From a virus (lineage: Duplodnaviria; Caudoviricetes), in the IMG/VR virus record IMGVR_UViG_2518645587_000001, positions 422 to 64,421 of that record: a DNA stretch of 64,000 bases. One strand, written 5' to 3'. The notes beneath the pieces were generated by a model. That model did no database searches. It had not been told where the DNA came from and saw only the letters and a list, made by a program, of their open reading frames with translations. This document shows positions 1 through 62,992 of this stretch, piece by piece. The translations under genes were made by a program, and so were the position numbers. The first letter of the stretch is position 1, and each line of letters opens with the position of its first letter.

Positions 1-596
1 AGCGCAGCCCAAATGGCAGCCTGCGCCGGCTTGCTGCAGTATTGAGCAATATCTCTTACCTCATCCACCGTCAAAAACACCTCTCGTTTATTGCTTACCC
101 TTACAGACTCGATACGTAGCCCGTGATTTTCGTGTGTGATCCGACGCTTCCATGCGAGAGTCAATCCTTTCTTGACGCAAGCCAGCGACCGGTTGATGGT
201 GGCTGGCGCGTACGCCGGCTTCATGGATTTTGTTTTCGGATCCTCGATCAACTTGCTCATGTCCCGGATAACCTTGTCCGCAAATTCCTGGGCTTGACTC
301 GCACGAAAGCTTGCTGCCCAGGGCTTCAGGCGCATGATATGGTGCTTGGATGAGTCAGCGCTGCGCAATTGAGAGGCGTGCTCTAAGTATATTTCCAAAA
401 TCTGCAGCATAGGCGGGTCACCTGGAATGGCTACTTGCTTGGCTTTTGGCGCGCGCGCCACTGCCGCGCGCAACTCAGCTTCAACTAGCTTGGCATCACG
501 CGCAGTTGCGCCTTCCGGCAGTATTCGGTGAACTCTTTTCCCGGCGACCATGATCCCGACGTGTTTGCGGCCGTTTTTGTCGTCCCAGATGGACAT
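1..596 (-). CDS. int: Tyrosine integrase, N-terminal part (3' end outside window; not in the ORF track)
   Basis: My translation from ATG 596: MSIWDDKNGRKHVGIMVAGKRVHRILPEG...PATINRSLACVKKGLTLAWK...KREVFLTVDEVRDIAQYC, open to base 1. 'TINR.L..L' and 'R.VFLT.DEV' match core-binding/pre-catalytic integrase motifs; lies next to xis. Confidence 0.8.
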   Translation of the reverse strand, partial: MSIWDDKNGRKHVGIMVAGKRVHRILPEGATARDAKLVEAELRAAVARAPKAKQVAIPGDPPMLQILEIYLEHASQLRSADSSKHHIMRLKPWAASFRASQAQEFADKVIRDMSKLIEDPKTKSMKPAYAPATINRSLACVKKGLTLAWKRRITHENHGLRIESVRVSNKREVFLTVDEVRDIAQYCSKPAQAAIWAA

Positions 597-823
597 AATT
601 GATTTTCCTTTAACCACTTCTTGCATTCCGCCAGGTCGTAGCGCTTCGATCTCGCGCCCACTGGCGTGTACGGCATTCCCTGTTGTTCGAGCCGCCGGAT
701 TGTAGACTCGCTCACGCTCAGCGCGGTGCAAATCTGTTGTCGATTAAGCTCGCCCATCGGGCTTTTGTTTTTGCTGGCCACCAACTCCGCAATGCGGGCC
801 AGTTCGTTTTCGTCGAATTTCAC
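485..823 (-). CDS. xis: Excisionase-like HTH protein
   Basis: GTG 823 with GGAG RBS, GTGA-coupled to the upstream ORF; LNRQQICTALSVSESTIRRLEQQGMP is a MerR/Xis-like HTH; overlaps the int start. Confidence 0.65.
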   Translation of the reverse strand: MKFDENELARIAELVASKNKSPMGELNRQQICTALSVSESTIRRLEQQGMPYTPVGARSKRYDLAECKKWLKENQLCPSGTTKTAANTSGSWSPGKEFTEYCRKAQLRVMPS

Positions 824-2781: not shown

Positions 2782-3098
2782 GACCGTCCTTTCTTCTTTT
2801 TCAGGTAGGGGCGCGCGCTGCCGAATGCCGGCGCACCGGCGCGCTGCATCGGGAACTCGACAGGTGCGACCTGGAACTTCGCCATTGCCGCCGCCAAGTC
2901 GCGAAACTTCGCCGCCGAGTTGATTGCGCTCAGTTCGAGCGCGGCAAGTTCCGCTTCAATGCGCCCGCGCACTGCCGCCTCCTCGTACTGCTTCGACGCC
3001 GCGATGAGCGCCTGGCCCAGGCTTGTGGCTGAAACGGCGAGCATCGCAGTCAGGCGGCGACCATCGCCGCTGCCGACGATCAGGATGCGGCCGGTCAC
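2778..3098 (-). CDS. Hypothetical protein
   Basis: 106 aa, coupled to both neighbours. Confidence 0.55.
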   Translation of the reverse strand: MTGRILIVGSGDGRRLTAMLAVSATSLGQALIAASKQYEEAAVRGRIEAELAALELSAINSAAKFRDLAAAMAKFQVAPVEFPMQRAGAPAFGSARPYLKKKKGRS

Positions 3099-3901
3099 GG
3101 CATCACCCGCTCAAATTCCACGCACCACACCCATGGGTTCGCATCCCAGCTGCCGACGCCGTTGATCGCTTCCCACAAGTGGCGGTACAACTTGAGGTGC
3201 GTATCGCAGTCCGTGCAATCCACGTCGAAGTTGACGCCGCCGCCGGCGCCCAGCGTGCTTCGCAGGCCGGTACCAGCACACGTCGAGCACAGGCTCCATC
3301 CGTCCTTGGTACGCGCCTCCGGGCGCGGGCTGTGGTCGGCATCCAACTGCATGACGCCTTCGGCCTTGGCGTCGGCCTCGCTGCAGTCGTTCAGCCGCTC
3401 CACGCGCACACTCACGATCTCCAGCAGGATCCGGCTGGCCGCGCGCGGCATGAAGATGGCTGGTCGCTTGTACCAGCCGGGCAACACGCCGCCATCGCGC
3501 TTCTTCGCCAGCGGCAAGTCGGGGGCGTCGGCGTCGTATTGGTAGGCGTGGCCGCACTCGACGGTCATGTCGATGAAGTGCCACTCGTCGCGCTTCTTCT
3601 TCTCGCTGTAGCGCGTTACCCACCGGCCGTAGGCGAAGAAGGTTTCACGGATCCAGATGCGACCACCTGGCCGGCCGTACGGGAACTTGCGGCCCATAGT
3701 TTCGTCCGACGCGCCAAATATTTCACGGCCCGGGGCGTCGTAGCCGCCGTTGTCGATGATGGTAGGGTTGTACGCGCCCACGAATGGATTCCAGTATGGG
3801 CCCGGGTCCGGCTTTACGATCCGGCGCGTCTGGCTTTTGGTGCCGGCCAGCGTGGAGCGGACCATGGCGCCATTCATGAGGATAGACCGTTCTTCGACCA
3901 T
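3095..3901 (-). CDS. ASCH/PUA-like phage protein with Zn-finger-like insert
   Basis: ERSILMNGAMVRSTLAGTKSQTRR, PYGRPGGRIWIRETF, IFMPRAASRILLEIVSVRVERL, WDANPWVWCVEF; insert CSTC...CTDC. Confidence 0.7.
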   Translation of the reverse strand: MVEERSILMNGAMVRSTLAGTKSQTRRIVKPDPGPYWNPFVGAYNPTIIDNGGYDAPGREIFGASDETMGRKFPYGRPGGRIWIRETFFAYGRWVTRYSEKKKRDEWHFIDMTVECGHAYQYDADAPDLPLAKKRDGGVLPGWYKRPAIFMPRAASRILLEIVSVRVERLNDCSEADAKAEGVMQLDADHSPRPEARTKDGWSLCSTCAGTGLRSTLGAGGGVNFDVDCTDCDTHLKLYRHLWEAINGVGSWDANPWVWCVEFERVMP

Positions 3902-3941
3902 GCTACTATTCCTTTCTATTAATATTTTTTACTGGCGACTT

Positions 3942-4586
3942 ATGGACTGGATGCAATTCGTTTCTAGCCTCGTTGGATCTCTGGCATGGCCTGTAGCGCT
4001 AGTCACTATCCTTTTCCTTTTCAAAGAAGAGGTAGCAAAACACCTCCCGCTGCTACAAAAACTCAAGCTGCCTGGCGGCATTGAGGCGGAGTTCAATAAA
4101 GACCTCGCTGAAGTCGCGGCAGCGATAGAAGATTCCGTCGCTGCCCCACCCGTAGTTGCTGCAAGCGACGAGCGCGAAACCACGAACCAAGAAATGCTTG
4201 GCGTCGATCCAGTAACCTTGTCCAACATCCTGAGCTTTATGCTTCCTGATGATGATCCAGTCGCACTTCGGGCGAATCCAACCGGGGTGGTGATGGAGGC
4301 ATGGAAGTCACTAGAGACCGTTCTTCGGGCTGCGACTAATCGCGCGAAAAAAAATGTTCACTTCTCAACGCGCATAGGATTCCCAAGCATCTTGCATTTC
4401 TTGGCGGACTCCAATTTCTTAACCAGCGAGGAAATTGATAGCCTTCGAAGATTGAAAAGCATGCGCGACCTTGCCGCCCACAGTAACGATCCAATTTCCG
4501 CCCAGAGCGCCACCGATTTCGCGGAATTGTCCGCCCGGATGGCGAAAAATTTAACTGTGCGAATGGGGCAAATGTTCCCTCAATAG
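3942..4586 (+). CDS. Antisense moron: N-terminal membrane helix plus HEPN-like C-terminal domain
   Basis: Lower GC; ATG 3942; hydrophobic LVGSLAWPVALVTILFLF; Rx4H motif RDLAAH at 4464-4481. Confidence 0.65.
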   Translation: MDWMQFVSSLVGSLAWPVALVTILFLFKEEVAKHLPLLQKLKLPGGIEAEFNKDLAEVAAAIEDSVAAPPVVAASDERETTNQEMLGVDPVTLSNILSFMLPDDDPVALRANPTGVVMEAWKSLETVLRAATNRAKKNVHFSTRIGFPSILHFLADSNFLTSEEIDSLRRLKSMRDLAAHSNDPISAQSATDFAELSARMAKNLTVRMGQMFPQ

Positions 4587-9399: not shown

Positions 9400-10329
9400 T
9401 TACTCTTGCTCGTGAGCCCAGCTGTCGATGGTCATCTTCTGGCTCTCTGTGAACGTGGCGCGGGTGCTCAACATGGCGATCAGCTGGGCCGGTGTCTTTT
9501 TCTTGCTCAAGATCATTTCGCGCCATGCCGGCGCTTTTTCCTTGAACAGCTCATCGGTACATTCGGGCAACTGGTCAATGGTGTGCGGTTCAGCGACAGC
9601 CTCGCGCGGCGCCGGCGTGATGTCGCGCATTTCCCGGCTCGATTCGTCGAGCTCGTCGGGGGTGTAGACGCCTAGGATTACGTCCGGTGCGTAAAGACGC
9701 GCCCAGCGCTTCACGGCCAGGTAGGCGAGTTGCTGCTTGGGATCGGTGGCCCACAGCGGCGAGTTGCGCACGCTGGCCTGCACCAGCAGCAGTTCGAGCA
9801 CGCGCGGCACCGACTCGCCGCGCAGCGTGGCCGAGATACGGATGCCCAGGCCAATCTCGGCGTTCAGGTCATAGTCGGGCGTGTGGAACTGATAGGCCTT
9901 CTTGTAGTCCTTGTCACCCTTCTTGCCTTTCTCCGGCACGGTCACCACACGCGTCTTGCCGATGATCTTTTCCCAGGCGCCGAACCACTCATAGTTGAAG
10001 CGGTCTTGCGTCACGCCGCTGGATACGATGGCCGCATTCACCAGTTGCCCTTCGTAGCCCAGCGCGCCGTTGACCACGTGCGTTTTTTGCGCAACGGCGA
10101 ACGGGTTCATTTGCCACTGCATGGCCTGCATAATCACGGCCGCGCAGTCGGATGCACTGCTCTTGAGGTGGTCGGGGATCGTCGCGCGGCCCTTGGCCAT
10201 GATGTCGGCCAGGCGCATGATGCTTTCCATGCTGGCGACGTCGAGGACGAGTGATGCGGTGCTGGCCGGCGCCATCGGCGTACTCGACAACTGCATGGCG
10301 GATTGGGACTCACGGGTAACTGCGTTCAT
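9400..10329 (-). CDS. recT: RecT-family single-strand annealing protein
   Basis: ATG 10329; DCAAVIMQAMQWQMNPFAVAQKTHVVNGALGYEGQLVNA; RLYAPDVILGVYTPDE. Confidence 0.8.
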   Translation of the reverse strand: MNAVTRESQSAMQLSSTPMAPASTASLVLDVASMESIMRLADIMAKGRATIPDHLKSSASDCAAVIMQAMQWQMNPFAVAQKTHVVNGALGYEGQLVNAAIVSSGVTQDRFNYEWFGAWEKIIGKTRVVTVPEKGKKGDKDYKKAYQFHTPDYDLNAEIGLGIRISATLRGESVPRVLELLLVQASVRNSPLWATDPKQQLAYLAVKRWARLYAPDVILGVYTPDELDESSREMRDITPAPREAVAEPHTIDQLPECTDELFKEKAPAWREMILSKKKTPAQLIAMLSTRATFTESQKMTIDSWAHEQE

Positions 10330-10396
10330 GCTTCTCTCCAGGTGGACTTCGTTGTTGCCGCCGGTGGCGGAAAAATTCGTGGTACTGCGGCGCCGG

Positions 10397-27731: not shown

Positions 27732-27843
27732 AACTGCGGCCAACAGGAAAGACCTTGCCAAAATCTGCAACACTTTGCCTGTTGCCCTATTGTTTCCGGG
27801 TTTTCCGTGTGTTAACGTTCCGGCGTTGCCACGGGAGAACAAC

Positions 27844-28374
27844 ATGGGTTATGCAGATCGGTTCGTAATGAGTTTGGGCGCCAGCACGTTGCAGGACGAC
27901 GCGCAGCATCACGCGGCCGAACCGCTGGCGGCCGCTGCGCTGGCGGACCTGACCGGCGCCGGCTTCGGCGCGCTGCTGACCCGCGTGAAATACGCTGACG
28001 GCTCGATTAGCAAGACCTTCGAGTCCGGCACTCAGAATCTGGCGCAGCTGCTGCGCATTTGGACCAACCGCGTGACCGAGAAAGGCCGTGAGCGCAAGTG
28101 GGTGAAGGAGGGCACCGAGTGGGACGTGTGCGCCGCCATGACCCTGTACCGCCGCGTCGCCGAGCGCTCACTGGCCTACTGGCTCGACGGGAAGTGCGGC
28201 ACCTGCCACGGTACCGGCACGGCCAGCCGGATGATCTGCCAGCCGTGCAAAGGCAGCGGTCGAGGCGAGATCGGTGGCGGAGGTTTCGAACGCGAAAAGG
28301 CGCTCGACATGGTCAGCGAGCTGGAAGGCCTTCTCCAAGCACACAATGCTCGTTCAGCCGCCTTGCTCAGATAG
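27844..28374 (+). CDS. Q-like late antiterminator with Zn finger
   Basis: GGAG RBS; CGTCHGTG...CQPCKGSG; last early gene before pR'. Confidence 0.7.
   Translation: MGYADRFVMSLGASTLQDDAQHHAAEPLAAAALADLTGAGFGALLTRVKYADGSISKTFESGTQNLAQLLRIWTNRVTEKGRERKWVKEGTEWDVCAAMTLYRRVAERSLAYWLDGKCGTCHGTGTASRMICQPCKGSGRGEIGGGGFEREKALDMVSELEGLLQAHNARSAALLR
28282..28374 (+). repeat. Q C-terminal segment, copy 1 (in frame with Q)
   Basis: GFEREKALDMVSELEGLLQAHNARSAALLR*. Confidence 0.95.
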
Positions 28375-29910
28375 TTCGACCGGGTGTGGGAAAAAGTCGG
28401 CCAATTCAGGCCTGATGATATTCCCCAGACTGGCGCGGGTTAATTCGGTGAAAGAGATGTCTCGGTTTTCAAATTCGCGCGCCGACACCAACAGGTAGGC
28501 TTCAATTTTTTCATTTCGCTGATCCAGTACGGCAGCAATGAGAAAGTCGTAGCCGGTAGCGAGCCGCTTATTGATTCGCCACCGGTGGTTACCCCACTTA
28601 TTGTCCAGCGCGCAGCGCACCACGCGAATCGATGCGGTGACCGCGTCGTTTATACGAAGGGTGTGCGGCATGTTGGTTGCTTGCCAGGTGCCGCCTGCCT
28701 CAATAATGGCACATTTCACAATGTCGAGGAACCCGGCCTTTATCGAGTGCGTGCGGCGGCGAGTAATGATGGCCTCGGCATTGAATGGCCCCGGAATTTC
28801 TGCCAGTTCATACGCGGCGTATATGGACCCGAAGCGACGGCAGAAGAGCTGGCATGCAGGTCCGTCTGGATCCCGGTCAATCAAGGCGCTGGTTACCCTT
28901 CCGTGGGCTTTGTAAATTCGCTGCAGGGTCTGCATGAGCTCCTCGGTGGTGTATCGATAATTTCGATCACTCCGCTCTATGCGTGCGGCATGGAAGAGTT
29001 GCAAAGGCACAATTGGCGGGAAAGCTGCATCGCAGCGGACCCACAACGCCGCGGGATTCCTGACGGCGGTCTTTCGCAGCTTGTAGGATCCCTTGTTGAA
29101 TATAAGGTTGCCGATGTATTTTTCGTTGCGGATCATTCCTCGGATGAGTGCGCCTGTCCACGGCCTGCCAGATTCTGAAGCGACGTTCTGCTCGTTGAGC
29201 GCGATGGCGATACGTCGATCTCCAACTTTGTCTACGGCGTACCAGTGGAATATTAGATTAACAACCTCGATTTCGTGCTTGGGGCCAGGCACCAGGACGA
29301 CGCGGTGCGTCTGAACCGCCTTCCATTCGCCTTTTTCCATTATGCGGATGAAATCGCCATTCGAATCGAGTAGCGCTCGGCGCAGGCCGTATCCAGCCAT
29401 GCCACCCAGTTTGTATCCCATCTTGATGATGCGGCACTGGGCAATGAATACTTTGGAAGACAGCTCGCGGCTGTAATCCGCCGCTGCTATTCGCTTCATC
29501 GCTTTGATGATCGAGGTGTAGGGCGAATCATCATTCTGGAAGGCCTCGGTGCAGTAGGTGACCTGCACTCCGTTCAGCCGGCAGATGTACTCGTAATGGG
29601 CGCTCTCATCGACGTCTTGGAAGCGGCCCCAGCGGCTGACGTCGTACACGAGGATGCAGGTGAAATCGTCTTTCGTCTGCACGTCTGCAAGCAGCTGCTG
29701 CAGGCCGGGTCGCCCCCGCATGGTGAGCCCGCTTTTGCCCGCGTCTTCATAAACTGCCACGATCGTTATCTGCTGCTCCGCTGCATACTCCTGGATGCGC
29801 TGCATCTGGTTTGCCGTGGAGTAGGTCTGTCTCTCGGTTGACATTCGCACATAGGCCGCAGCTCGACGAAACGGCGACAGGATAGTAGTTTCCAGCAAAC
29901 CGCTCATCAT
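28354..29910 (-). CDS. Large serine recombinase A
   Basis: AAAYVRMSTERQ (catalytic Ser), DAGKSG, GRPGLQQL, VYDVSRWGR; recombinase domain IRNEKYIG; GGAG RBS. Confidence 0.9.
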   Translation of the reverse strand: MMSGLLETTILSPFRRAAAYVRMSTERQTYSTANQMQRIQEYAAEQQITIVAVYEDAGKSGLTMRGRPGLQQLLADVQTKDDFTCILVYDVSRWGRFQDVDESAHYEYICRLNGVQVTYCTEAFQNDDSPYTSIIKAMKRIAAADYSRELSSKVFIAQCRIIKMGYKLGGMAGYGLRRALLDSNGDFIRIMEKGEWKAVQTHRVVLVPGPKHEIEVVNLIFHWYAVDKVGDRRIAIALNEQNVASESGRPWTGALIRGMIRNEKYIGNLIFNKGSYKLRKTAVRNPAALWVRCDAAFPPIVPLQLFHAARIERSDRNYRYTTEELMQTLQRIYKAHGRVTSALIDRDPDGPACQLFCRRFGSIYAAYELAEIPGPFNAEAIITRRRTHSIKAGFLDIVKCAIIEAGGTWQATNMPHTLRINDAVTASIRVVRCALDNKWGNHRWRINKRLATGYDFLIAAVLDQRNEKIEAYLLVSAREFENRDISFTELTRASLGNIIRPELADFFPHPVELSEQGG

Positions 29911-30091
29911 TTTTCTCCGGTGGAATCATGGGATAGCAGCGACAGGATAACTCTTCCAGCGGACGCGTCAGGAATCTCAGCGCAAGCTCGATCGAAACGT
30001 CGTTGTCGGAGAGCAGTGCGGCGGCAAATTTGACGCCGTGGCTGGGCACCATGCCACGCGCGGCCAAGCAAAGGGGGATGGGATTTCTCAT
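29747..30091 (-). CDS. Small ORF upstream of recombinase A
   Basis: MRNPIPLCLAARGMVPSHGVKFAAALLSDNDVSIELALRFLT; homologous to 31630-31944. Confidence 0.7.
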   Translation of the reverse strand: MRNPIPLCLAARGMVPSHGVKFAAALLSDNDVSIELALRFLTRPLEELSCRCYPMIPPEKNDERFAGNYYPVAVSSSCGLCANVNRETDLLHGKPDAAHPGVCSGAADNDRGSL

Positions 30092-30143
30092 CCGATAACT
30101 TTACCGGGCGCTTGTCCTGCTGGCATTGAGAATTATCAACTTC
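30089..30143 (-). promoter_or_regulatory. Conserved arm A: ATGCCA-N17-TAAAGT promoter and TTGA-N6-TCAA dyad (attP-like arm)
   Basis: 47 of 55 bases identical to 31942-31996, no gaps. Confidence 0.65.
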
Positions 30144-30236
30144 GGCTTCGAACGCGAGAAGGCGCTCGATATGGTTAGCGAACTGGAAGGCCTGATCCAG
30201 TCGCATATTGCTCGATCGACTGCGTTACTTCGCTGA
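30144..30236 (+). repeat. Q C-terminal segment, copy 2 (no upstream Q body)
   Basis: GFEREKALDMVSELEGLIQSHIARSTALLR*. Confidence 0.95.
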
Positions 30237-31760
30237 GCTCGTCGGCAGGAAGAAGTCCGAGAGGTTCCATCGTTGGTTTGCCGAGTACCGTTTGATGCTG
30301 GATTCTGTAAATGCGATCGCCCGATGATCCAGGTCACCAGTCGGGAAGAGTAGGTATGAGGTGATATTTCTGTTCGTGCGGTCCAGTAATGCAACGAGCA
30401 AGAAGTCACACCCTTCAGCTAAACGAGCCGGTATCCGCCATCGGTAGTATCCATATTTTTTGTCGTGCGCACATCGGATGGCCCTCATCGATACCGTCAC
30501 ACTCCCGTTTAACCGCAGTGTATGGGGTGCATCCATTAGCTCTGCCGTTGCCCCGGCACCGATTGCCAGTGCTGTCGCCTCGGCCACCATGCGGTCACGA
30601 AACCCGTAGTTCTGATCGCGTGTGACCAAGAAGTCGTTGCTCCGAAGATTTGGGATGCCTGCCTGTGTGAACGCATCAAATAGCGTGCCGAAGTGGCGAG
30701 CAATCAGCCGTGCCGTAGGCAAATCCGGATCCGCATCAATCAGGGTGCTCGAAATGCGACCGTGCGCGTTGTAGATCCGCTGCATCGACGTAATCAACTC
30801 CTGGTCGGTGTATCTCCGGTGGCGGCGCGCTCGCTCTCGCGCGACGGCATTGAAAAGCTCTTGGGGCACGATGGGCGTAATCGCGCCGTCGCATCGAACC
30901 CACTCCTCCGGCGGGTTCCGCACCGCAGTCTTTCGCAACTTGAAGGATGCTTTGTTAAATATCAGATTGCCGATGTATTTTTCATTTTGGAGCATGCCCC
31001 GGATTATGTCGGGCGTCCAGGGGCCACCTGACTCCGTTGCGACAGATTGCTCATTTAGTACAGCAGCGATTTTTCTGTCGCCGACGCCATCCTCGGCGTA
31101 CCATTTGAAGACCTGGTTGACAATGGCAATCTCGGCCACCGGACCAGGCACAAGCACCACTCGGTGGGTCTGGACTGCTTTCCATTCGCCAGCCTTGAGG
31201 ATCTGAATAATCTTCCCGTCCGAGTCGAGTAGGGCGCGGCGTAATCCGTAGCCAGGTGGCCCGCCCGTTTTGTATCCCATCGAAATCATTCTGCACTGGC
31301 CGGCGAAGACCTTGGCAGAAAGCTCGCGGCTGTACTCGGCTGCCGCCGCGCGCTTGAGGGCCTTGATGATGGCTGTGAACGGCGTTCCATCGTTTTCGAA
31401 CACCTCGGCGCAGTAGGCGACGTTGACGCCGTTCAGGCGGCACAAGTACTCATAGTGGGCGCTCTCGTCCAAGTCCTGGAACCGTCCCCAGCGGCTGATA
31501 TCGTACACAAGAATCAATGCGAAGTCGTGGTTGCCCTGCACGTCCTCTATCATTTGAGTGAGGCCCGGACGACCCTTTTTCGTAAGGCCACTGCGCCCCG
31601 AATCTTCGTAGATGGTTACCACGTCGACGTCATGGCTCGCCGCGTATTGCCGAATCCGGTCCAGTTGGTTGGCCGTCGAGTAGATCTGGCGCTCCGTCGA
31701 CATACGGACATACGCTGCAGCGCGGAGGCGGACGGTTGATGGTGCTTGTGAGGACTTCAT
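30225..31760 (-). CDS. Large serine recombinase B
   Basis: ATG 31760 with AGGAG RBS; AAAYVRMSTERQ, DSGRSG, VYDISRWGR, LQNEKYIG. Confidence 0.9.
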   Translation of the reverse strand: MKSSQAPSTVRLRAAAYVRMSTERQIYSTANQLDRIRQYAASHDVDVVTIYEDSGRSGLTKKGRPGLTQMIEDVQGNHDFALILVYDISRWGRFQDLDESAHYEYLCRLNGVNVAYCAEVFENDGTPFTAIIKALKRAAAAEYSRELSAKVFAGQCRMISMGYKTGGPPGYGLRRALLDSDGKIIQILKAGEWKAVQTHRVVLVPGPVAEIAIVNQVFKWYAEDGVGDRKIAAVLNEQSVATESGGPWTPDIIRGMLQNEKYIGNLIFNKASFKLRKTAVRNPPEEWVRCDGAITPIVPQELFNAVARERARRHRRYTDQELITSMQRIYNAHGRISSTLIDADPDLPTARLIARHFGTLFDAFTQAGIPNLRSNDFLVTRDQNYGFRDRMVAEATALAIGAGATAELMDAPHTLRLNGSVTVSMRAIRCAHDKKYGYYRWRIPARLAEGCDFLLVALLDRTNRNITSYLLFPTGDLDHRAIAFTESSIKRYSANQRWNLSDFFLPTSSAK

Positions 31761-31944
31761 GTTCGTGCTCCTGGCATCGGTACGGCCAACAGGCACAGGA
31801 TAGCTGGTTTAGCGGCAGCGTTAGAAATCGCAGGGCAAGTTCGATGGGTACGGCGTGGTCACATAAGAGCGCAGCGGAAAAAGGGATGCCATGCGTGGGC
31901 GCTAAGCGGCGAGCGGCAAGACAAAGGGCGATGTAGTTTTTCAT
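31630..31944 (-). CDS. Small ORF upstream of recombinase B
   Basis: MKNYIALCLAARRLAPTHGIPFSAALLCDHAVPIELALRFLT. Confidence 0.7.
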   Translation of the reverse strand: MKNYIALCLAARRLAPTHGIPFSAALLCDHAVPIELALRFLTLPLNQLSCACWPYRCQEHEHEVLTSTINRPPPRCSVCPYVDGAPDLLDGQPTGPDSAIRGEP

Positions 31945-31996
31945 CTGATAACTTTACCTGCCGCTTATCCTTCTGGCATTGAGAAATATCAAGGTC
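31942..31996 (-). promoter_or_regulatory. Conserved arm B (same promoter and dyad as arm A)
   Basis: ATGCCA-N17-TAAAGT-N6-ATG; TTGAGAAATATCAA at 31979-31992. Confidence 0.65.
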
Positions 31997-32092
31997 GGCT
32001 TCGAGCGCGAGAAGGCGCTGGATATGGTCAGCGAGTTAGAAAGTTTGTTGCACGCCCGCAACGCGCGGGCTTCCAAGAGGTTACGACTCTAA
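31997..32092 (+). repeat. Q C-terminal segment, copy 3 (probably the ancestral tail)
   Basis: GFEREKALDMVSELESLLHARNARASKRLRL*. Confidence 0.95.
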
Positions 32093-33208
32093 CGAAGTAC
32101 CCTCTGCTTTTGCCGCCTTCCGGCCATTGATTCGATCGACCAAAGCCAGTACTAGTTCCTGCGTATTAATCGGATACGATTCCTTTGTCACATGATCGAA
32201 TGTTTTTGGTGCAAACATTCTCTGTGCAATTTCAGCCTTTAGAGTATCTTGTTGCTCCTTAGGTAAGGTCGCAATATATGGCCCAACTGCCTTCAAATCC
32301 AGAGATGTTTGTAAATGGGTGTATTGCTGCTGGCGGTGTTTAGCAGATTCTCTCGCGAGATATGCGGCGGGTACTGAGAATAATAGTGAGCATATAAGCT
32401 TTAAAGCCGACTTCTCCCACGAGAATTCACCTGTCGTGATGCCGTAAAAGGTAAAGCCGACAAATATCATAACGAGTACCATGAATACGATCGAAGCGAT
32501 TCGCAGTGCGTCGGCTGAAGTTTTCTCAATATCAGCACTTTTTTCATAGCTTCCCACGATGCTCTTAGCCGCGATTACCCCGACAACCTCATTGACTTCG
32601 GCTAACTTTCCTTCGAGATAGACAGATGTCTCTAAAAGCTTTTCGTCTATGCGGGATCTCAATTCTGAAGCACTTAAATTAGTGTCAGAAAGTGAGGACT
32701 GCAAGCTACGGATCGAATCTTCGATCACCCCTGTTTGCTTCAGCTGTTTAGATAATGAGTCTTCAGTTTGCGATATCCGGAGATTGAAAAAATCTAGCTG
32801 TGCGAGAAACTCTGGAGAATTTTTGTTTCTTGGATAGCTCATAATTTTTGAGTGCAGCGCGTAATTCTCAGCATGCTCTTGCACTAAGTTACGAAATCCT
32901 TTGAGAATTTCCTTGATTTTTCTCGCTTCTAAAGTGCCAGGTTTGCTATAACCAATCTTATCAAGAATAACTGCTGCAATCCCCTCAAATTTATTTGCAT
33001 TGTCGATAATTTCAGAAAATCCAATAGGTATACTTTTTAAAGTATTCGGTAAATCTATTAAGTTGGCCCATGCTGCATTCAGTTTTTCTCGAAGCTGAGG
33101 TGCGTCTGAAAAATCGTTACTTTCCAAAGTGCTGCTAATTAGAGAGTATAGATTATTTCCCGTTGAGATAATTTCCGCCAAACTACTATCAAGATCGAAG
33201 GGGTCCAC
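32081..33208 (-). CDS. Low-GC moron: coiled coil plus two C-terminal membrane helices
   Basis: Markedly AT-rich; IASIVFMVLVMIFVGFTFY and LICSLLFSVPAAYL, then RESAKHR...LDLKAVGPYI. Confidence 0.75.
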   Translation of the reverse strand: MDPFDLDSSLAEIISTGNNLYSLISSTLESNDFSDAPQLREKLNAAWANLIDLPNTLKSIPIGFSEIIDNANKFEGIAAVILDKIGYSKPGTLEARKIKEILKGFRNLVQEHAENYALHSKIMSYPRNKNSPEFLAQLDFFNLRISQTEDSLSKQLKQTGVIEDSIRSLQSSLSDTNLSASELRSRIDEKLLETSVYLEGKLAEVNEVVGVIAAKSIVGSYEKSADIEKTSADALRIASIVFMVLVMIFVGFTFYGITTGEFSWEKSALKLICSLLFSVPAAYLARESAKHRQQQYTHLQTSLDLKAVGPYIATLPKEQQDTLKAEIAQRMFAPKTFDHVTKESYPINTQELVLALVDRINGRKAAKAEGTSLES

Positions 33209-33312: not shown

Positions 33313-33341
33313 TTGACATTTTGAATTTGCTTGGTTAAAGT
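33313..33341 (+). promoter_or_regulatory. Late promoter pR'
   Basis: TTGACA-N17-TAAAGT downstream of Q and upstream of all late genes. Confidence 0.75.
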
Positions 33342-33482
33342 GCAGCTACACACTAACCGCACTCGTAATGAAGGCTTCGGCCTCACCGATAGCGGTGATT
33401 CGAGGATTGCACCAACTTCGTTGATGCTTTCGCTCGCGTTTATATTACACTCACCGCGCAGATAGCACGGGAGCAAATCCTC

Positions 33483-33512
33483 AAGCCACCCATTGCGGTG
33501 GCTTTCTTATTT
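33483..33512 (+). terminator. tR'-like terminator
   Basis: AAGCCACC-CATTGC-GGTGGCTT-TCTTATTT, about 140-165 nt after pR'. Confidence 0.75.
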
Positions 33513-33536
33513 CCGCGTCCGAAAAGCGAGGCGGCC

Positions 33537-35784: not shown

Positions 35785-36261
35785 ATGGCAGCACTACGAG
35801 ACGAGGTGAAGCTGTTCATCGTCCAAGCGCTGGCCTGTTTTGACACGCCGACGCAGGTGTCGAAGGCAGTAAAAGAGGAGTTCGGGCTCGACGTTATGCG
35901 GCAGCAGGTGGCCGCTTACGACCCGAACTGCTATGTAGGTCGCAACCTCAGCGAGAAGTGGCGCACGGTGTTCAACGACACGCGCGCCAAGTTCCGCGAA
36001 GAGGTCGCGGAGATTCCGATCGCCAGCCGAGCCTTCCGCCTTCGTGCGTTGGCCCGGATGGCGCAGCAGGCCGAGGGCATGCGCAATATCGCGCTGGCCG
36101 TGTCGGTTATCGAGCAGGCCGCCAAGGAAGTGGGCGACATGTACGTCAACCGCCGCCTCGATACGCCCAAAGCACCAGGCGACAACGGCGAGGGCATCCC
36201 GGCCGCGCCAGAATACATGTTGAAGCCCGATGAAGACCTCCCCGACAGCCCGATTCTCTGA
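35785..36261 (+). CDS. terS: Terminase small subunit (DUF2280-like)
   Basis: MAALRDEVKLFIVQALACFDTPTQV...QQVAAYDP; precedes terL. Confidence 0.8.
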   Translation: MAALRDEVKLFIVQALACFDTPTQVSKAVKEEFGLDVMRQQVAAYDPNCYVGRNLSEKWRTVFNDTRAKFREEVAEIPIASRAFRLRALARMAQQAEGMRNIALAVSVIEQAAKEVGDMYVNRRLDTPKAPGDNGEGIPAAPEYMLKPDEDLPDSPIL

Positions 36262-62290: not shown

Positions 62291-62526
62291 AAAAACTCGA
62301 ACTGATCGAAGACTGGCGGGCGGTGCTTACGCGCGCCTGGTCGATGAAATTCAGCATCCTGGCCGCCATCCTCGGCGGCCTGGAGGTGGGCGTCCAGTAT
62401 GTGCAGCCGGCCGGCATCCCGAACGGCGTGTTCGCAGGAATCGCCTCGGCCGTGTCGCTGTCCGCCGCCGTGGCGCGCCTGGTGGCGCAGCGTGAACTGT
62501 CGGGAGGCGCCAATGGCAACGCCTAA
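62287..62526 (+). CDS. Holin
   Basis: LIEDWRAVLTRAWSMKF plus two hydrophobic segments; precedes lysozyme. Confidence 0.7.
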   Translation: MKKLELIEDWRAVLTRAWSMKFSILAAILGGLEVGVQYVQPAGIPNGVFAGIASAVSLSAAVARLVAQRELSGGANGNA

Positions 62527-62992
62527 ACAACGTGCAGCGGCCGCTGCGGTGCTGGCCACGATCATCGCCGTACCTGCCGAGGGCATCCGTCAGATCGCCT
62601 ACTACGACCCGCCCGGCATCCTGACCGTGTGCTACGGACACACCGGCGCCGACGTGGTGGCGAAGCGCCTGTACTCGATGGACGAATGCCGCGCGCTGCT
62701 GACGGCCGACATGCAGAAGGCGGTGGCCACAGTCGAGCGCTGCGTGCCAGGCCTGCCGGTACCGGTGCTGGCTGCCTTCGCCGACGCGGTATTCAATCTG
62801 GGCCCGACGCTGGTTTGCAGCCGCGCCAGCTCGACGGCCGCGCGCATGCTGTACGCCGGCGACCTGGTCGGCGCGTGCAACCAGCTGCCGCGCTGGGACA
62901 AGGCGCGCGTGCTGGGCGCCATGGTGGCTTTGCCGGGGCTGACCAAGCGCCGCGCCGCTGAGCGCAGCCTGTGCCTGACGGGGACGACATGA
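62513..62992 (+). CDS. GH24 lysozyme endolysin (SAR-type)
   Basis: Ala-rich N-terminal anchor; E-8x-D-5x-T triad (EGIRQIAYYDPPGILT); LPGLTKRR. Confidence 0.9.
   Translation: MATPKQRAAAAAVLATIIAVPAEGIRQIAYYDPPGILTVCYGHTGADVVAKRLYSMDECRALLTADMQKAVATVERCVPGLPVPVLAAFADAVFNLGPTLVCSRASSTAARMLYAGDLVGACNQLPRWDKARVLGAMVALPGLTKRRAAERSLCLTGTT

What the first reader, a model, noticed from the sequence alone, without database searches (positions are those of the whole stretch)
27844..32092. Tandem minimal serine-recombinase elements that integrate into the phage Q antiterminator gene and each bring a replacement Q tail
Seen: the last ~30 codons of Q occur three times in direct orientation (28282-28374, 30144-30236, 31997-32092). 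Similarity begins abruptly at the same Gly codon (GFEREKALDMVSELE). Between the copies lie two same-architecture units of 1862 and 1853 bp: [Q tail][<- large serine recombinase][<- small ORF][55-bp arm]. The two recombinases have intact YVRMST motifs but are clearly diverged (roughly two-thirds identical over the catalytic domain by eye), so they are related acquisitions rather than a fresh duplication. Established: integrative elements that insert inside genes carry a replacement 3' end in attP, and a restored gene can be targeted again. Inference: B-P'(A)...P(A)-P'(B)...P(B)-B', i.e. two cargo-free ~1.85-kb elements parasitising an essential late regulator and hitchhiking in the virion. I know of no described element of this kind.
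Basis: partly seen in the sequence, partly recalled or inferred. Interest (0 to 1): 0.92.

Follow-up and report, generated by a model that had tools for sequence, protein, structure and literature searches.

The report
Mini recombinase elements stacked in phage Q
Two tiny (about 1.85 kb) mobile-element-like units, each only a serine recombinase, a small partner gene and a spare copy of the last 30 codons of a prophage's probable late-gene antiterminator, sit one behind the other inside that gene, and related phages carry none, one or two of them.

Summary
Three direct copies of a ~93-nt Q tail lie at 28282, 30144 and 31997. They bound two same-architecture units of 1862 and 1853 bp: tail, large serine recombinase, small ORF, 55-nt arm.

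The target gene matches no Q family by sequence. Its model matches only Qλ strongly (Z 10.2), and a promoter-plus-terminator pair follows it, so "Q" is probable.

- empty sites (G243, L087, L088);
- single B with arm and displaced tail (L114, L117);
- single A with arm and displaced tail (L086);
- singles with no displaced tail;
- A–B doublets in at least four assemblies.

Q-fused tails show 0–2 nonsynonymous against 2–22 synonymous codon changes. Displaced tails carry stops and frameshifts. All recombinase genes are intact (dN/dS 0.06–0.24).

Best reading: site-specific integrative mini-elements that restore the gene they split, stacked B first and then A. Excision or circles could not be tested, because only contigs were available. 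Much of the variation among relatives is homologous-recombination mosaicism.

The logic is known (SCC cassettes at rlmH, tDNA islands). The niche, the size and an atypical recombinase C-terminus are new. I call it a new variant of a known kind. The scan had no note of it on other DNA.

The parts
27844..28374 (+). Target gene (176 aa), probable Q-type antiterminator with a CxxCxGxG...CxxCKGxG zinc finger. Residues 147-176 are encoded by tail 1.
   Evidence: No Pfam or PHROG Q hit. 277 homologues, all 'hypothetical', in Duganella/Janthinobacterium-type prophages. The AF2 model's best PDB matches are all Qlambda: Z 10.2, rmsd 2.7, 124 aa; the next non-Q hit has Z 4.9.
28282..28374 (+). Tail 1: the functional Q C-terminus, read as element A's replacement tail (attL side).
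   Evidence: In relatives it shows 0-2 nonsynonymous against 2-22 synonymous codon changes. The stop codon of recombinase A lies 21 nt inside it.
28354..29910 (-). Recombinase A (518 aa).
   Evidence: Pfam Resolvase 7.8e-24 and Recombinase 4.6e-20. Model residues 11-317 match the SPbeta integrase, Z 19.1; residues 381-508 match I-Ssp6803I, Z 9.0. dN/dS is 0.11-0.24 against relatives.
29747..30091 (-). Small ORF A (114 aa open frame). Only the first ~48 residues are conserved; the rest overlaps the recombinase start in another frame.
   Evidence: It precedes every recombinase of this clade, including those outside phages. No Pfam, PHROG or Atlas match.
30089..30143 (.). Arm A (55 nt), holding the small ORF's start codon and the dyad TTGAGAATTATCAA. 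It ends 4 nt after the dyad, exactly at the tail junction.
30144..30236 (+). Tail 2: displaced pseudo-tail, read as element B's own tail that served Q until A arrived.
   Evidence: Open frame with 4 nonsynonymous changes against tail 1. Its second half is closest to the Q-fused tails next to B-type recombinases in L114 and L106 (37 and 34 of 48 matches, against 30 for tail 1). Recombinase B's stop lies 12 nt inside it.
30225..31796 (-). Recombinase B (523 aa from GTG).
   Evidence: Pfam hits. 59% identical to A. dN/dS is 0.06-0.10 against L113, L114, L106 and L117.
31630..31944 (-). Small ORF B (104 aa open frame).
31942..31996 (.). Arm B (55 nt), with the dyad TTGAGAAATATCAA.
31997..32092 (+). 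Tail 3: the displaced original Q tail (B' side), contiguous with the downstream AT-rich gene exactly as in the empty site of G243.
   Evidence: High identity to other doublets ends at 32034-32041, inside it.
32081..33208 (-). AT-rich 375-aa gene (moron) convergent on Q. It is part of the original phage context, not of the elements.
   Evidence: GC 0.37-0.45. Homologues follow Q directly in G243 and follow the single B unit in L114. Hits phrog_29215, unknown function.
33313..33514 (+). Promoter-like site (TTGACA-17-TAAAGT) and an intrinsic-terminator-like hairpin about 150 nt downstream. This is a candidate late promoter plus terminator on which a Q protein would act.
   Evidence: The block from 33336/33348 to about 33512 is where homology resumes in every relative.

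Best explanation
Units A (28282-30143) and B (30144-31996) are two diverged members of one family of cargo-free site-specific integrative elements.

Proposed mechanism (inferred):
- In circular form each element would read arm, Q tail, recombinase, small ORF.
- Its attP is the arm-tail junction.
- Its attB lies in the phage's Q-type gene, at or just after codon 147.
- Recombination fuses the Q body to the element's tail, so Q stays whole.
- The phage's own tail is pushed behind the arm, where it decays.
- The rebuilt Q is again a target, so B went in first and A went in later, in front of it.
- The 48-residue core of the small ORF is probably a cofactor or regulator.

Shown here: the anatomy, empty, single and double states in relatives, coding selection on fused tails, decay of displaced tails, and purifying selection on both recombinases.

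Inferred, not shown: the crossover point (somewhere from the junction to about 40 nt into the tail), present-day excision and integration, and spread between phage genomes.
For: 1. Anatomy.

2. Empty site: G243 has a 95% identical Q whose tail runs straight into a homologue of the gene behind tail 3. L087 and L088 are also empty.

3. The predicted intermediate exists. L114 reads Q, B-type unit, arm, wrecked tail, same moron. L117 is a second single B with an arm and a frameshifted tail. L086 is a single A with an arm and a frameshifted B-type tail.

4. A-B doublets occur in G401/L095, L112 and X3/X7.

5. Every arm|tail junction is at the same nucleotide.

6. Fused tails show 0-2 nonsynonymous against 2-22 synonymous codon changes. 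Displaced tails have stops or frameshifts in G401, L086, L114 and L117.

7. Tail 2 is still open although A and B are saturated at synonymous sites. The doublet is therefore not an old duplication.

8. Tail 3's first 45 nt are intact, although the window's B and the L114/L117 B differ by dS ~1.5 and their displaced tails are wrecked. This points to separate or recent junctions, or to selection on attR.

9. All ten recombinase ORFs examined are intact, with dN/dS 0.06-0.24 in the pairs where dS is not saturated.

10. The prophage has its own tyrosine integrase at the window's left edge, so these are not the phage's integrases.
Against: - No excision product, circle or empty-site read could be looked for; all runs were available as contigs only.
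- Six relatives have a unit with no displaced tail: L084, L085, L115, G097, L106 and L113. These cannot excise by attL x attR, yet they keep intact recombinases.
- A is only ever seen in front of a B-type tail or with no displaced tail, so A may have inserted only once.
- The window-L115 high-identity block (about 28231-29839) does not follow the element's borders. Homologous recombination therefore explains part of the patchy distribution.
- No clear dyad symmetry marks a crossover site.
- The recombinase shows no zinc ribbon or coiled coil, so the rules known for canonical large serine integrases may not apply.
Confidence: 0.72

Rival explanations
1. Fixed relics or a domesticated module. 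The units entered once (or a few times) long ago and are now inherited with the Q region as an ordinary moron. The recombinases are kept because they do something for the phage, for example another site-specific reaction. Presence or absence among relatives comes from deletions and homologous module exchange.
For: - Units co-diverge roughly with their flanks: a single 78-81% identity block in G097 and a 91% block in L084.
- Six relatives lack a displaced tail yet keep intact recombinases under purifying selection.
- Mosaic blocks ignore element borders.
- Displaced tails are wrecked in L086, L114 and L117.
Against: - Two diverged units sit at exactly the same nucleotide, each with its own tail.
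- Tail 2 and tail 3 in the window are far fresher than the A/B or B/B' divergence allows.
- No phage-side function is evident.
- Empty sites are precise.
Confidence: 0.2
2. One composite 3.7-kb element with two cooperating recombinases, as CcrA/CcrB in SCCmec. The middle tail would be a relic.
For: - The A-B order recurs in at least four assemblies.
- More distant family members (40-44% identity) occur as adjacent pairs about 1.5 kb apart in G077, G323, G110, G345 and G296.
Against: - Single B units with their own arm and displaced tail exist (L114, L117), as does a single A (L086).
- Each unit has a complete arm, small ORF and tail.
- The distant pairs have no tail repeats and no room for a small ORF.
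Confidence: 0.05

Closest known systems
SCC / SCCmec cassettes (CcrAB or CcrC large serine recombinases) at the 3' end of rlmH (orfX) in staphylococci
   Same: Serine-recombinase-driven insertion next to or into the 3' end of one conserved gene. The gene stays functional and each cassette is bounded by repeats of the site. The regenerated site is reused, so cassettes stack in tandem (PMC11470126; the rest is from general knowledge of SCC).
   Different: SCC cassettes are 20-60 kb with cargo, sit in the chromosome and replace only a few codons. Here the units are 1.85 kb without cargo, sit in a phage regulatory gene and bring 30 codons. The recombinase shows no detectable zinc ribbon or coiled coil.
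Genomic islands and prophages that integrate into tRNA/tmRNA or protein-gene 3' ends and regenerate the target (Islander-type islands; phage 21 and e14 in icd)
   Same: The element carries a replacement 3' end, and the displaced fragment marks the far border (PMC4383910). Tandem arrays at one target are known.
   Different: Those mostly use tyrosine integrases, carry many genes and target host genes, not a gene of another mobile element.
Gene-intervening elements with serine recombinases (skin in sigK, SPbeta in spsM, gin in gerE)
   Same: A large serine recombinase plus a small directionality factor, inserted inside a coding region (PMC5595907, PMC4191935, PMC5499854).
   Different: Those split and inactivate the gene until they excise, and they are large (gin has 31 genes). 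Here the gene is restored on insertion.
Homing endonuclease genes and mobile introns in phage genomes
   Same: Minimal selfish DNA that lives inside conserved phage genes without destroying them and would spread between co-resident phage genomes. The recombinase's C-terminal domain resembles the homing endonuclease I-Ssp6803I (Z 9.0).
   Different: The chemistry differs: conservative site-specific recombination rather than double-strand break and repair. There is no splicing.
IS607-family and other serine-recombinase transposons (TnpX/TndX)
   Same: A small element whose only enzyme is a serine recombinase and which moves via a circle.
   Different: Those have loose target choice and do not rebuild a target gene. 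Their domain order and size differ.

Membership tests
Large serine recombinase / integrase | N-terminal resolvase-type catalytic domain with the nucleophilic Ser in a YxRxS(T) motif | tested here: met
   Pfam Resolvase 7.8e-24 and 1.4e-22. AAYVRMSTERQ is present in both. The column is nearly invariant in 40 homologues. The model matches catalytic domains with Z 14-19.
Large serine recombinase / integrase | Recombinase domain (RD) after the long alpha-E helix | tested here: met
   Pfam Recombinase 4.6e-20 and 5.9e-23. Model residues 11-317 align to SPbeta, Bxb1 and phiC31 integrases through the RD.
Large serine recombinase / integrase | Zinc-ribbon domain with an embedded coiled coil that sets attP/attB discrimination and RDF control | tested here: inconclusive
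   No Pfam Zn_ribbon_recom hit. I saw no CxxC pairs in the C-terminal 200 residues. Fold alignments to integrases stop near residue 320-364. Residues 381-508 instead align to I-Ssp6803I, Z 9.0. The C-terminus was not folded alone.
Site-specific integrative element that regenerates its target gene | Empty target site in relatives, colinear with both flanks | tested here: met
   G243 (L035), L087 and L088.
Site-specific integrative element that regenerates its target gene | Replacement gene end inside the element and a displaced original fragment at the far border | tested here: met
Site-specific integrative element that regenerates its target gene | Excision to a circle and re-integration | not testable with these tools
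   All 24 runs were held as contigs. No joint matching a circle or an empty site was seen in the four runs laid.
Q-type transcription antiterminator (lambda Q family) | Sequence membership (Pfam or PHROG Q families) | tested here: not met
   No Q family hit. Only a sub-threshold DnaJ zinc-finger match.
Q-type transcription antiterminator (lambda Q family) | Qlambda fold with a zinc-binding element | tested here: met
   Z 10.2 (rmsd 2.7, 124 aa) and Z 10.1 (136 aa) to Qlambda in its loading complexes. The six best rows are all Qlambda and the next row has Z 4.9. Foldseek probability 1.00 and 0.96, TM 0.52-0.58. Model confidence is only moderate (pLDDT 68).
Q-type transcription antiterminator (lambda Q family) | Position at the end of the early-right operon, followed by a late promoter and a terminator ahead of the structural genes | tested here: met
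   Gene order is DUF1376 replication gene, DnaC-like gene, 136-aa ORF, target gene. A promoter-like site at 33313-33341 and a terminator-like site at 33483-33504 follow. Terminase lies at 36230. These are consensus scans only.
Q-type transcription antiterminator (lambda Q family) | Antitermination activity | not testable with these tools
   Needs a reporter assay.

The most novel reading that the evidence does not exclude
These are active hyperparasites of temperate phages: a family of the smallest known serine-recombinase integrative elements. They 'home' into the antiterminator gene of related phages during co-residence and ride in their capsids. They use a new recombinase architecture, in which a homing-endonuclease-like (I-Ssp6803I-type) DNA-binding domain replaces the zinc ribbon and coiled coil, together with a 48-residue cofactor.
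Probability: 0.4. Interest if true: 0.85.

Novelty: new variant of a known kind. Interest (0 to 1): 0.68.

Why it matters
If active, these elements show that conservative site-specific integration with target repair can support a cargo-free parasite of under 2 kb that lives on a virus rather than a cell. That would be a recombinase counterpart of homing endonuclease genes.

The recombinase clade has thousands of relatives in Betaproteobacteria. It shows no canonical zinc ribbon or coiled coil, so its site recognition and directionality control would be new biology and a possible source of compact integration tools.

The locus also gives a natural series (empty, B, A+B) for studying how stacked elements and their displaced gene ends age.

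Tried and rejected
- **Read-level test for circles and empty junctions.** All 24 runs were Logan contigs. The four runs laid (X3, X7, X9, X19) showed only another doublet variant with an A-like patch in the start of recombinase B. No joint matched a circle or an empty site. This is no evidence either way.
- **Dyad-symmetry scan** of the presumed attP, attB, attL and attR. The best centres had 10-12 of 22 matches and were inconsistent between sites, so the scan was uninformative.
- **Arm pattern search.** In GTDB genomes it gave only two chance archaeal hits. In IMG/VR and JGI metagenomes it found only the G401/L095 doublet plus unrelated hits.
- **Phage GenBank tblastn with Q:** no match.
- **Sequence searches of Q against PDB:** only weak DnaJ zinc-finger hits.
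- **Protein Atlas for the small ORF:** scores 0.76-0.77, no lead.
- **Crossover at the 3' end of the tail** (each tail belonging to the unit on its left): rejected. It would leave each recombinase's last 4-7 codons outside its own element. It would also make tails 2 and 3 never-coding, although they show a synonymous-only pattern, and tail 2 groups with the tails fused next to B-type recombinases.
- **Old tandem duplication followed by divergence:** rejected, because tail 2 is still open while A and B are saturated at synonymous sites.
- **The recombinases as the prophage's own integrase:** rejected. A tyrosine integrase sits at the prophage's left end, and the units lie mid-genome.
- **Literature.** Five full-text searches found no description of such elements in phage Q genes. 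The library is incomplete.
Full report
**1. The observation**

The repeat finder gives a three-copy direct family at 28282, 30144 and 31997, spaced 1862 and 1853 nt. A three-way alignment shows that similarity starts at the same GG(T/C)TTCGA. Upstream of copy 1 lies the body of a 176-aa gene (27844-28374). Upstream of copies 2 and 3 lies a shared 55-nt arm.

The tails translate to GFEREKALDMVSELE plus 15-16 variable residues and a stop. All nine differences in the first 45 nt are synonymous.

Between the copies lie two units with the same layout:
- a large serine recombinase on the minus strand (518 and 523 aa, 59% identical, Pfam Resolvase plus Recombinase);
- a small ORF;
- the arm.

Each recombinase's stop codon lies 21 or 12 nt inside the tail to its left. 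GC is 0.55-0.59 in the units, 0.63-0.70 in the early genes and 0.37-0.45 in the gene behind tail 3.

**2. Is the target gene Q?**

No Pfam, PHROG or PDB sequence search calls it Q. Its 277 homologues are unnamed proteins of Duganella, Janthinobacterium and related prophages.

An AlphaFold model built on 42 sequences (pLDDT 68) finds Qλ as its best matches:
- Foldseek probability 1.00 and 0.96, TM 0.52-0.58.
- VIA-align Z 10.2 (rmsd 2.7, 124 residues) and Z 10.1. The six best rows are all Qλ, and the next has Z 4.9.

The gene closes the replication block (DUF1376, DnaC-like). After the insert and a moron come a σ70-like promoter (33313-33341) and an intrinsic-terminator-like hairpin (33483-33504), ahead of the terminase. 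That promoter-terminator block is where homology resumes in every relative. I therefore treat "Q-type antiterminator" as probable but untested.

**3. Relatives**

| State | Where |
|---|---|
| Empty site | G243 (same genus, Q 95% identical, tail runs directly into a homologue of the AT-rich gene behind tail 3); L087; L088 |
| Single B-type unit with arm and displaced tail | L114 (followed by the same moron); L117 |
| Single A-type unit with arm and a frameshifted B-type tail | L086 |
| Single unit with an arm but no displaced tail | L084, L085, L115, G097 (A-type); L106 (B-type). L113 (B-type) also has an arm and no displaced tail on its right, but the decayed tail on its left suggests another unit lies off the contig. 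|
| A-B doublet | G401/L095, L112, contigs of runs X3 and X7 |

G243, L114 and the window form the series that the insertion model predicts: empty, then B, then A plus B. The window's own genome holds only these two recombinases of the clade. The prophage has a tyrosine integrase at its left end.

**4. Which tail belongs to what**

Q-fused tails are under strong coding selection. Against tail 1 they show 0-2 nonsynonymous but 2-22 synonymous codon changes, in occupied and empty sites alike.

Arm-adjacent tails decay:
- a premature stop in G401 tail 3;
- frameshifts or stops in L086, L114 and L117;
- 3-4 nonsynonymous changes in tail 2.

Tail 2's second half is closest to the Q-fused tails that sit next to B-type recombinases (37 and 34 of 48 matches, against 30 for tail 1). 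Together with the recombinase stops lying inside the tail on their left, this favours a crossover near the start of the tail, so that each tail travels with the unit on its right. The exact crossover is unknown. A dyad scan was uninformative.

**5. Age and activity**

A and B are saturated at synonymous sites (dN 0.35), yet tail 2 is still an open frame. The doublet therefore arose by a late arrival of A next to B, not by an ancient duplication.

The window's B differs from the B of L114/L117 by dS ~1.5. Those lineages' displaced tails are wrecked, while the window's tail 3 keeps its first 15 codons. This means either separate insertions at the same nucleotide or selection on attR.

All ten recombinase ORFs examined are intact, with dN/dS 0.06-0.24. 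This argues that the enzyme is in use.

Several things argue against simple, ongoing mobility:
- Some units lack a displaced tail.
- A was never seen in front of anything other than a B-type tail.
- Clear homologous-recombination mosaics occur. The window-L115 high-identity block runs about 28231-29839, which is not the element's borders (LSR dS 0.11 against Q body 0.38).
- X3 and X7 carry an A-like patch in B's start, and identity to other doublets ends at 32034-32041 inside tail 3.

**6. The enzyme and its partner**

Model residues 11-317 match the catalytic and recombinase domains of the SPβ, Bxb1 and φC31 integrases (Z up to 19.1). No zinc ribbon or coiled coil was found. Residues 381-508 align instead to the homing endonuclease I-Ssp6803I (Z 9.0, rmsd 3.5, 112 residues). 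Pfam gives a sub-threshold homing-endonuclease-associated repeat at 320-370.

The small ORF's 48-residue core precedes the recombinase throughout the clade, including in non-phage contexts (L069, L107-L111). It has no family match. A role as cofactor or regulator is inference only.

In a quick tree, the A and B clades fall in one 15-row clade (SH-aLRT 94). That clade also holds a group from a non-phage context, the P0126 group. This tree is not the finished careful search.

**7. Comparison and verdict**

The logic is that of SCC cassettes stacked at rlmH (PMC11470126) and of tDNA islands that regenerate their target (PMC4383910). It contrasts with gene-intervening elements such as gin (31 genes, PMC5595907), which split their gene.

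What is unusual here:
- the host is another mobile element;
- the target is its late regulator;
- the unit is 1.85 kb and cargo-free;
- the replacement is 30 codons long;
- the recombinase has an atypical C-terminus.

I found no description of this in five full-text searches. I rate it a new variant of a known kind, with 0.72 confidence that these are, or recently were, active integrative elements.

Noticed in passing
window 28354-29910 (model residues 381-508); same region of 30225-31796: The recombinase's C-terminal domain aligns to the PD-(D/E)xK homing endonuclease I-Ssp6803I (Z 9.0, rmsd 3.5, 112 aa) rather than to a zinc ribbon or coiled coil. Conserved D455, D463 and N466 do not form an obvious D...ExK motif.
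   Followed up: partly
window 33313-33514: A promoter-like site (TTGACA-17-TAAAGT) followed about 150 nt later by a terminator-like hairpin. This block is conserved in all relatives. It is a candidate late promoter with a short terminated leader, as in lambda.
   Followed up: partly
window 27757-27800; L084 about 10300-10350; L006 about 3260-3310: A terminator-like hairpin motif (AATCTGCAA...TTGC plus a T run) lies just upstream of Q. A similar sequence lies right of the arm in relatives that lack a displaced tail.
   Followed up: no
L074 (G396:C1) 2965-4412: In another genus a Q homologue is split at about residue 131 by a ~900-bp insertion sequence encoding a 275-aa transposase. This looks like an ordinary disruptive insertion, in contrast to the gene-restoring units here.
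   Followed up: partly
L064-L068, L080 (G077, G323, G110, G345, G296): More distant recombinases of the family (40-44% identity) occur as adjacent gene pairs about 1.5 kb apart, without tail repeats or small ORFs. These may be CcrAB-like two-recombinase elements.
   Followed up: partly
L113 1498-3676: Behind a B-type unit (88% identical), the space to the right of the arm holds PLD-family and endonuclease/exonuclease/phosphatase-family genes. This could be cargo or a different moron.
   Followed up: no
window 32081-33208: An AT-rich (GC ~0.40) 375-aa gene convergent on Q overlaps tail 3 by 12 nt. Homologues sit in the same place in G243 and L114. It matches only phrog_29215 (unknown function).
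   Followed up: partly
window 1-731 (minus strand) and upstream in the genome: The prophage's tyrosine integrase straddles the left edge of the window (G000:C1:2485778-2486206). A lysozyme gene lies at 62399-62992, so the prophage fills almost the whole window.
   Followed up: partly
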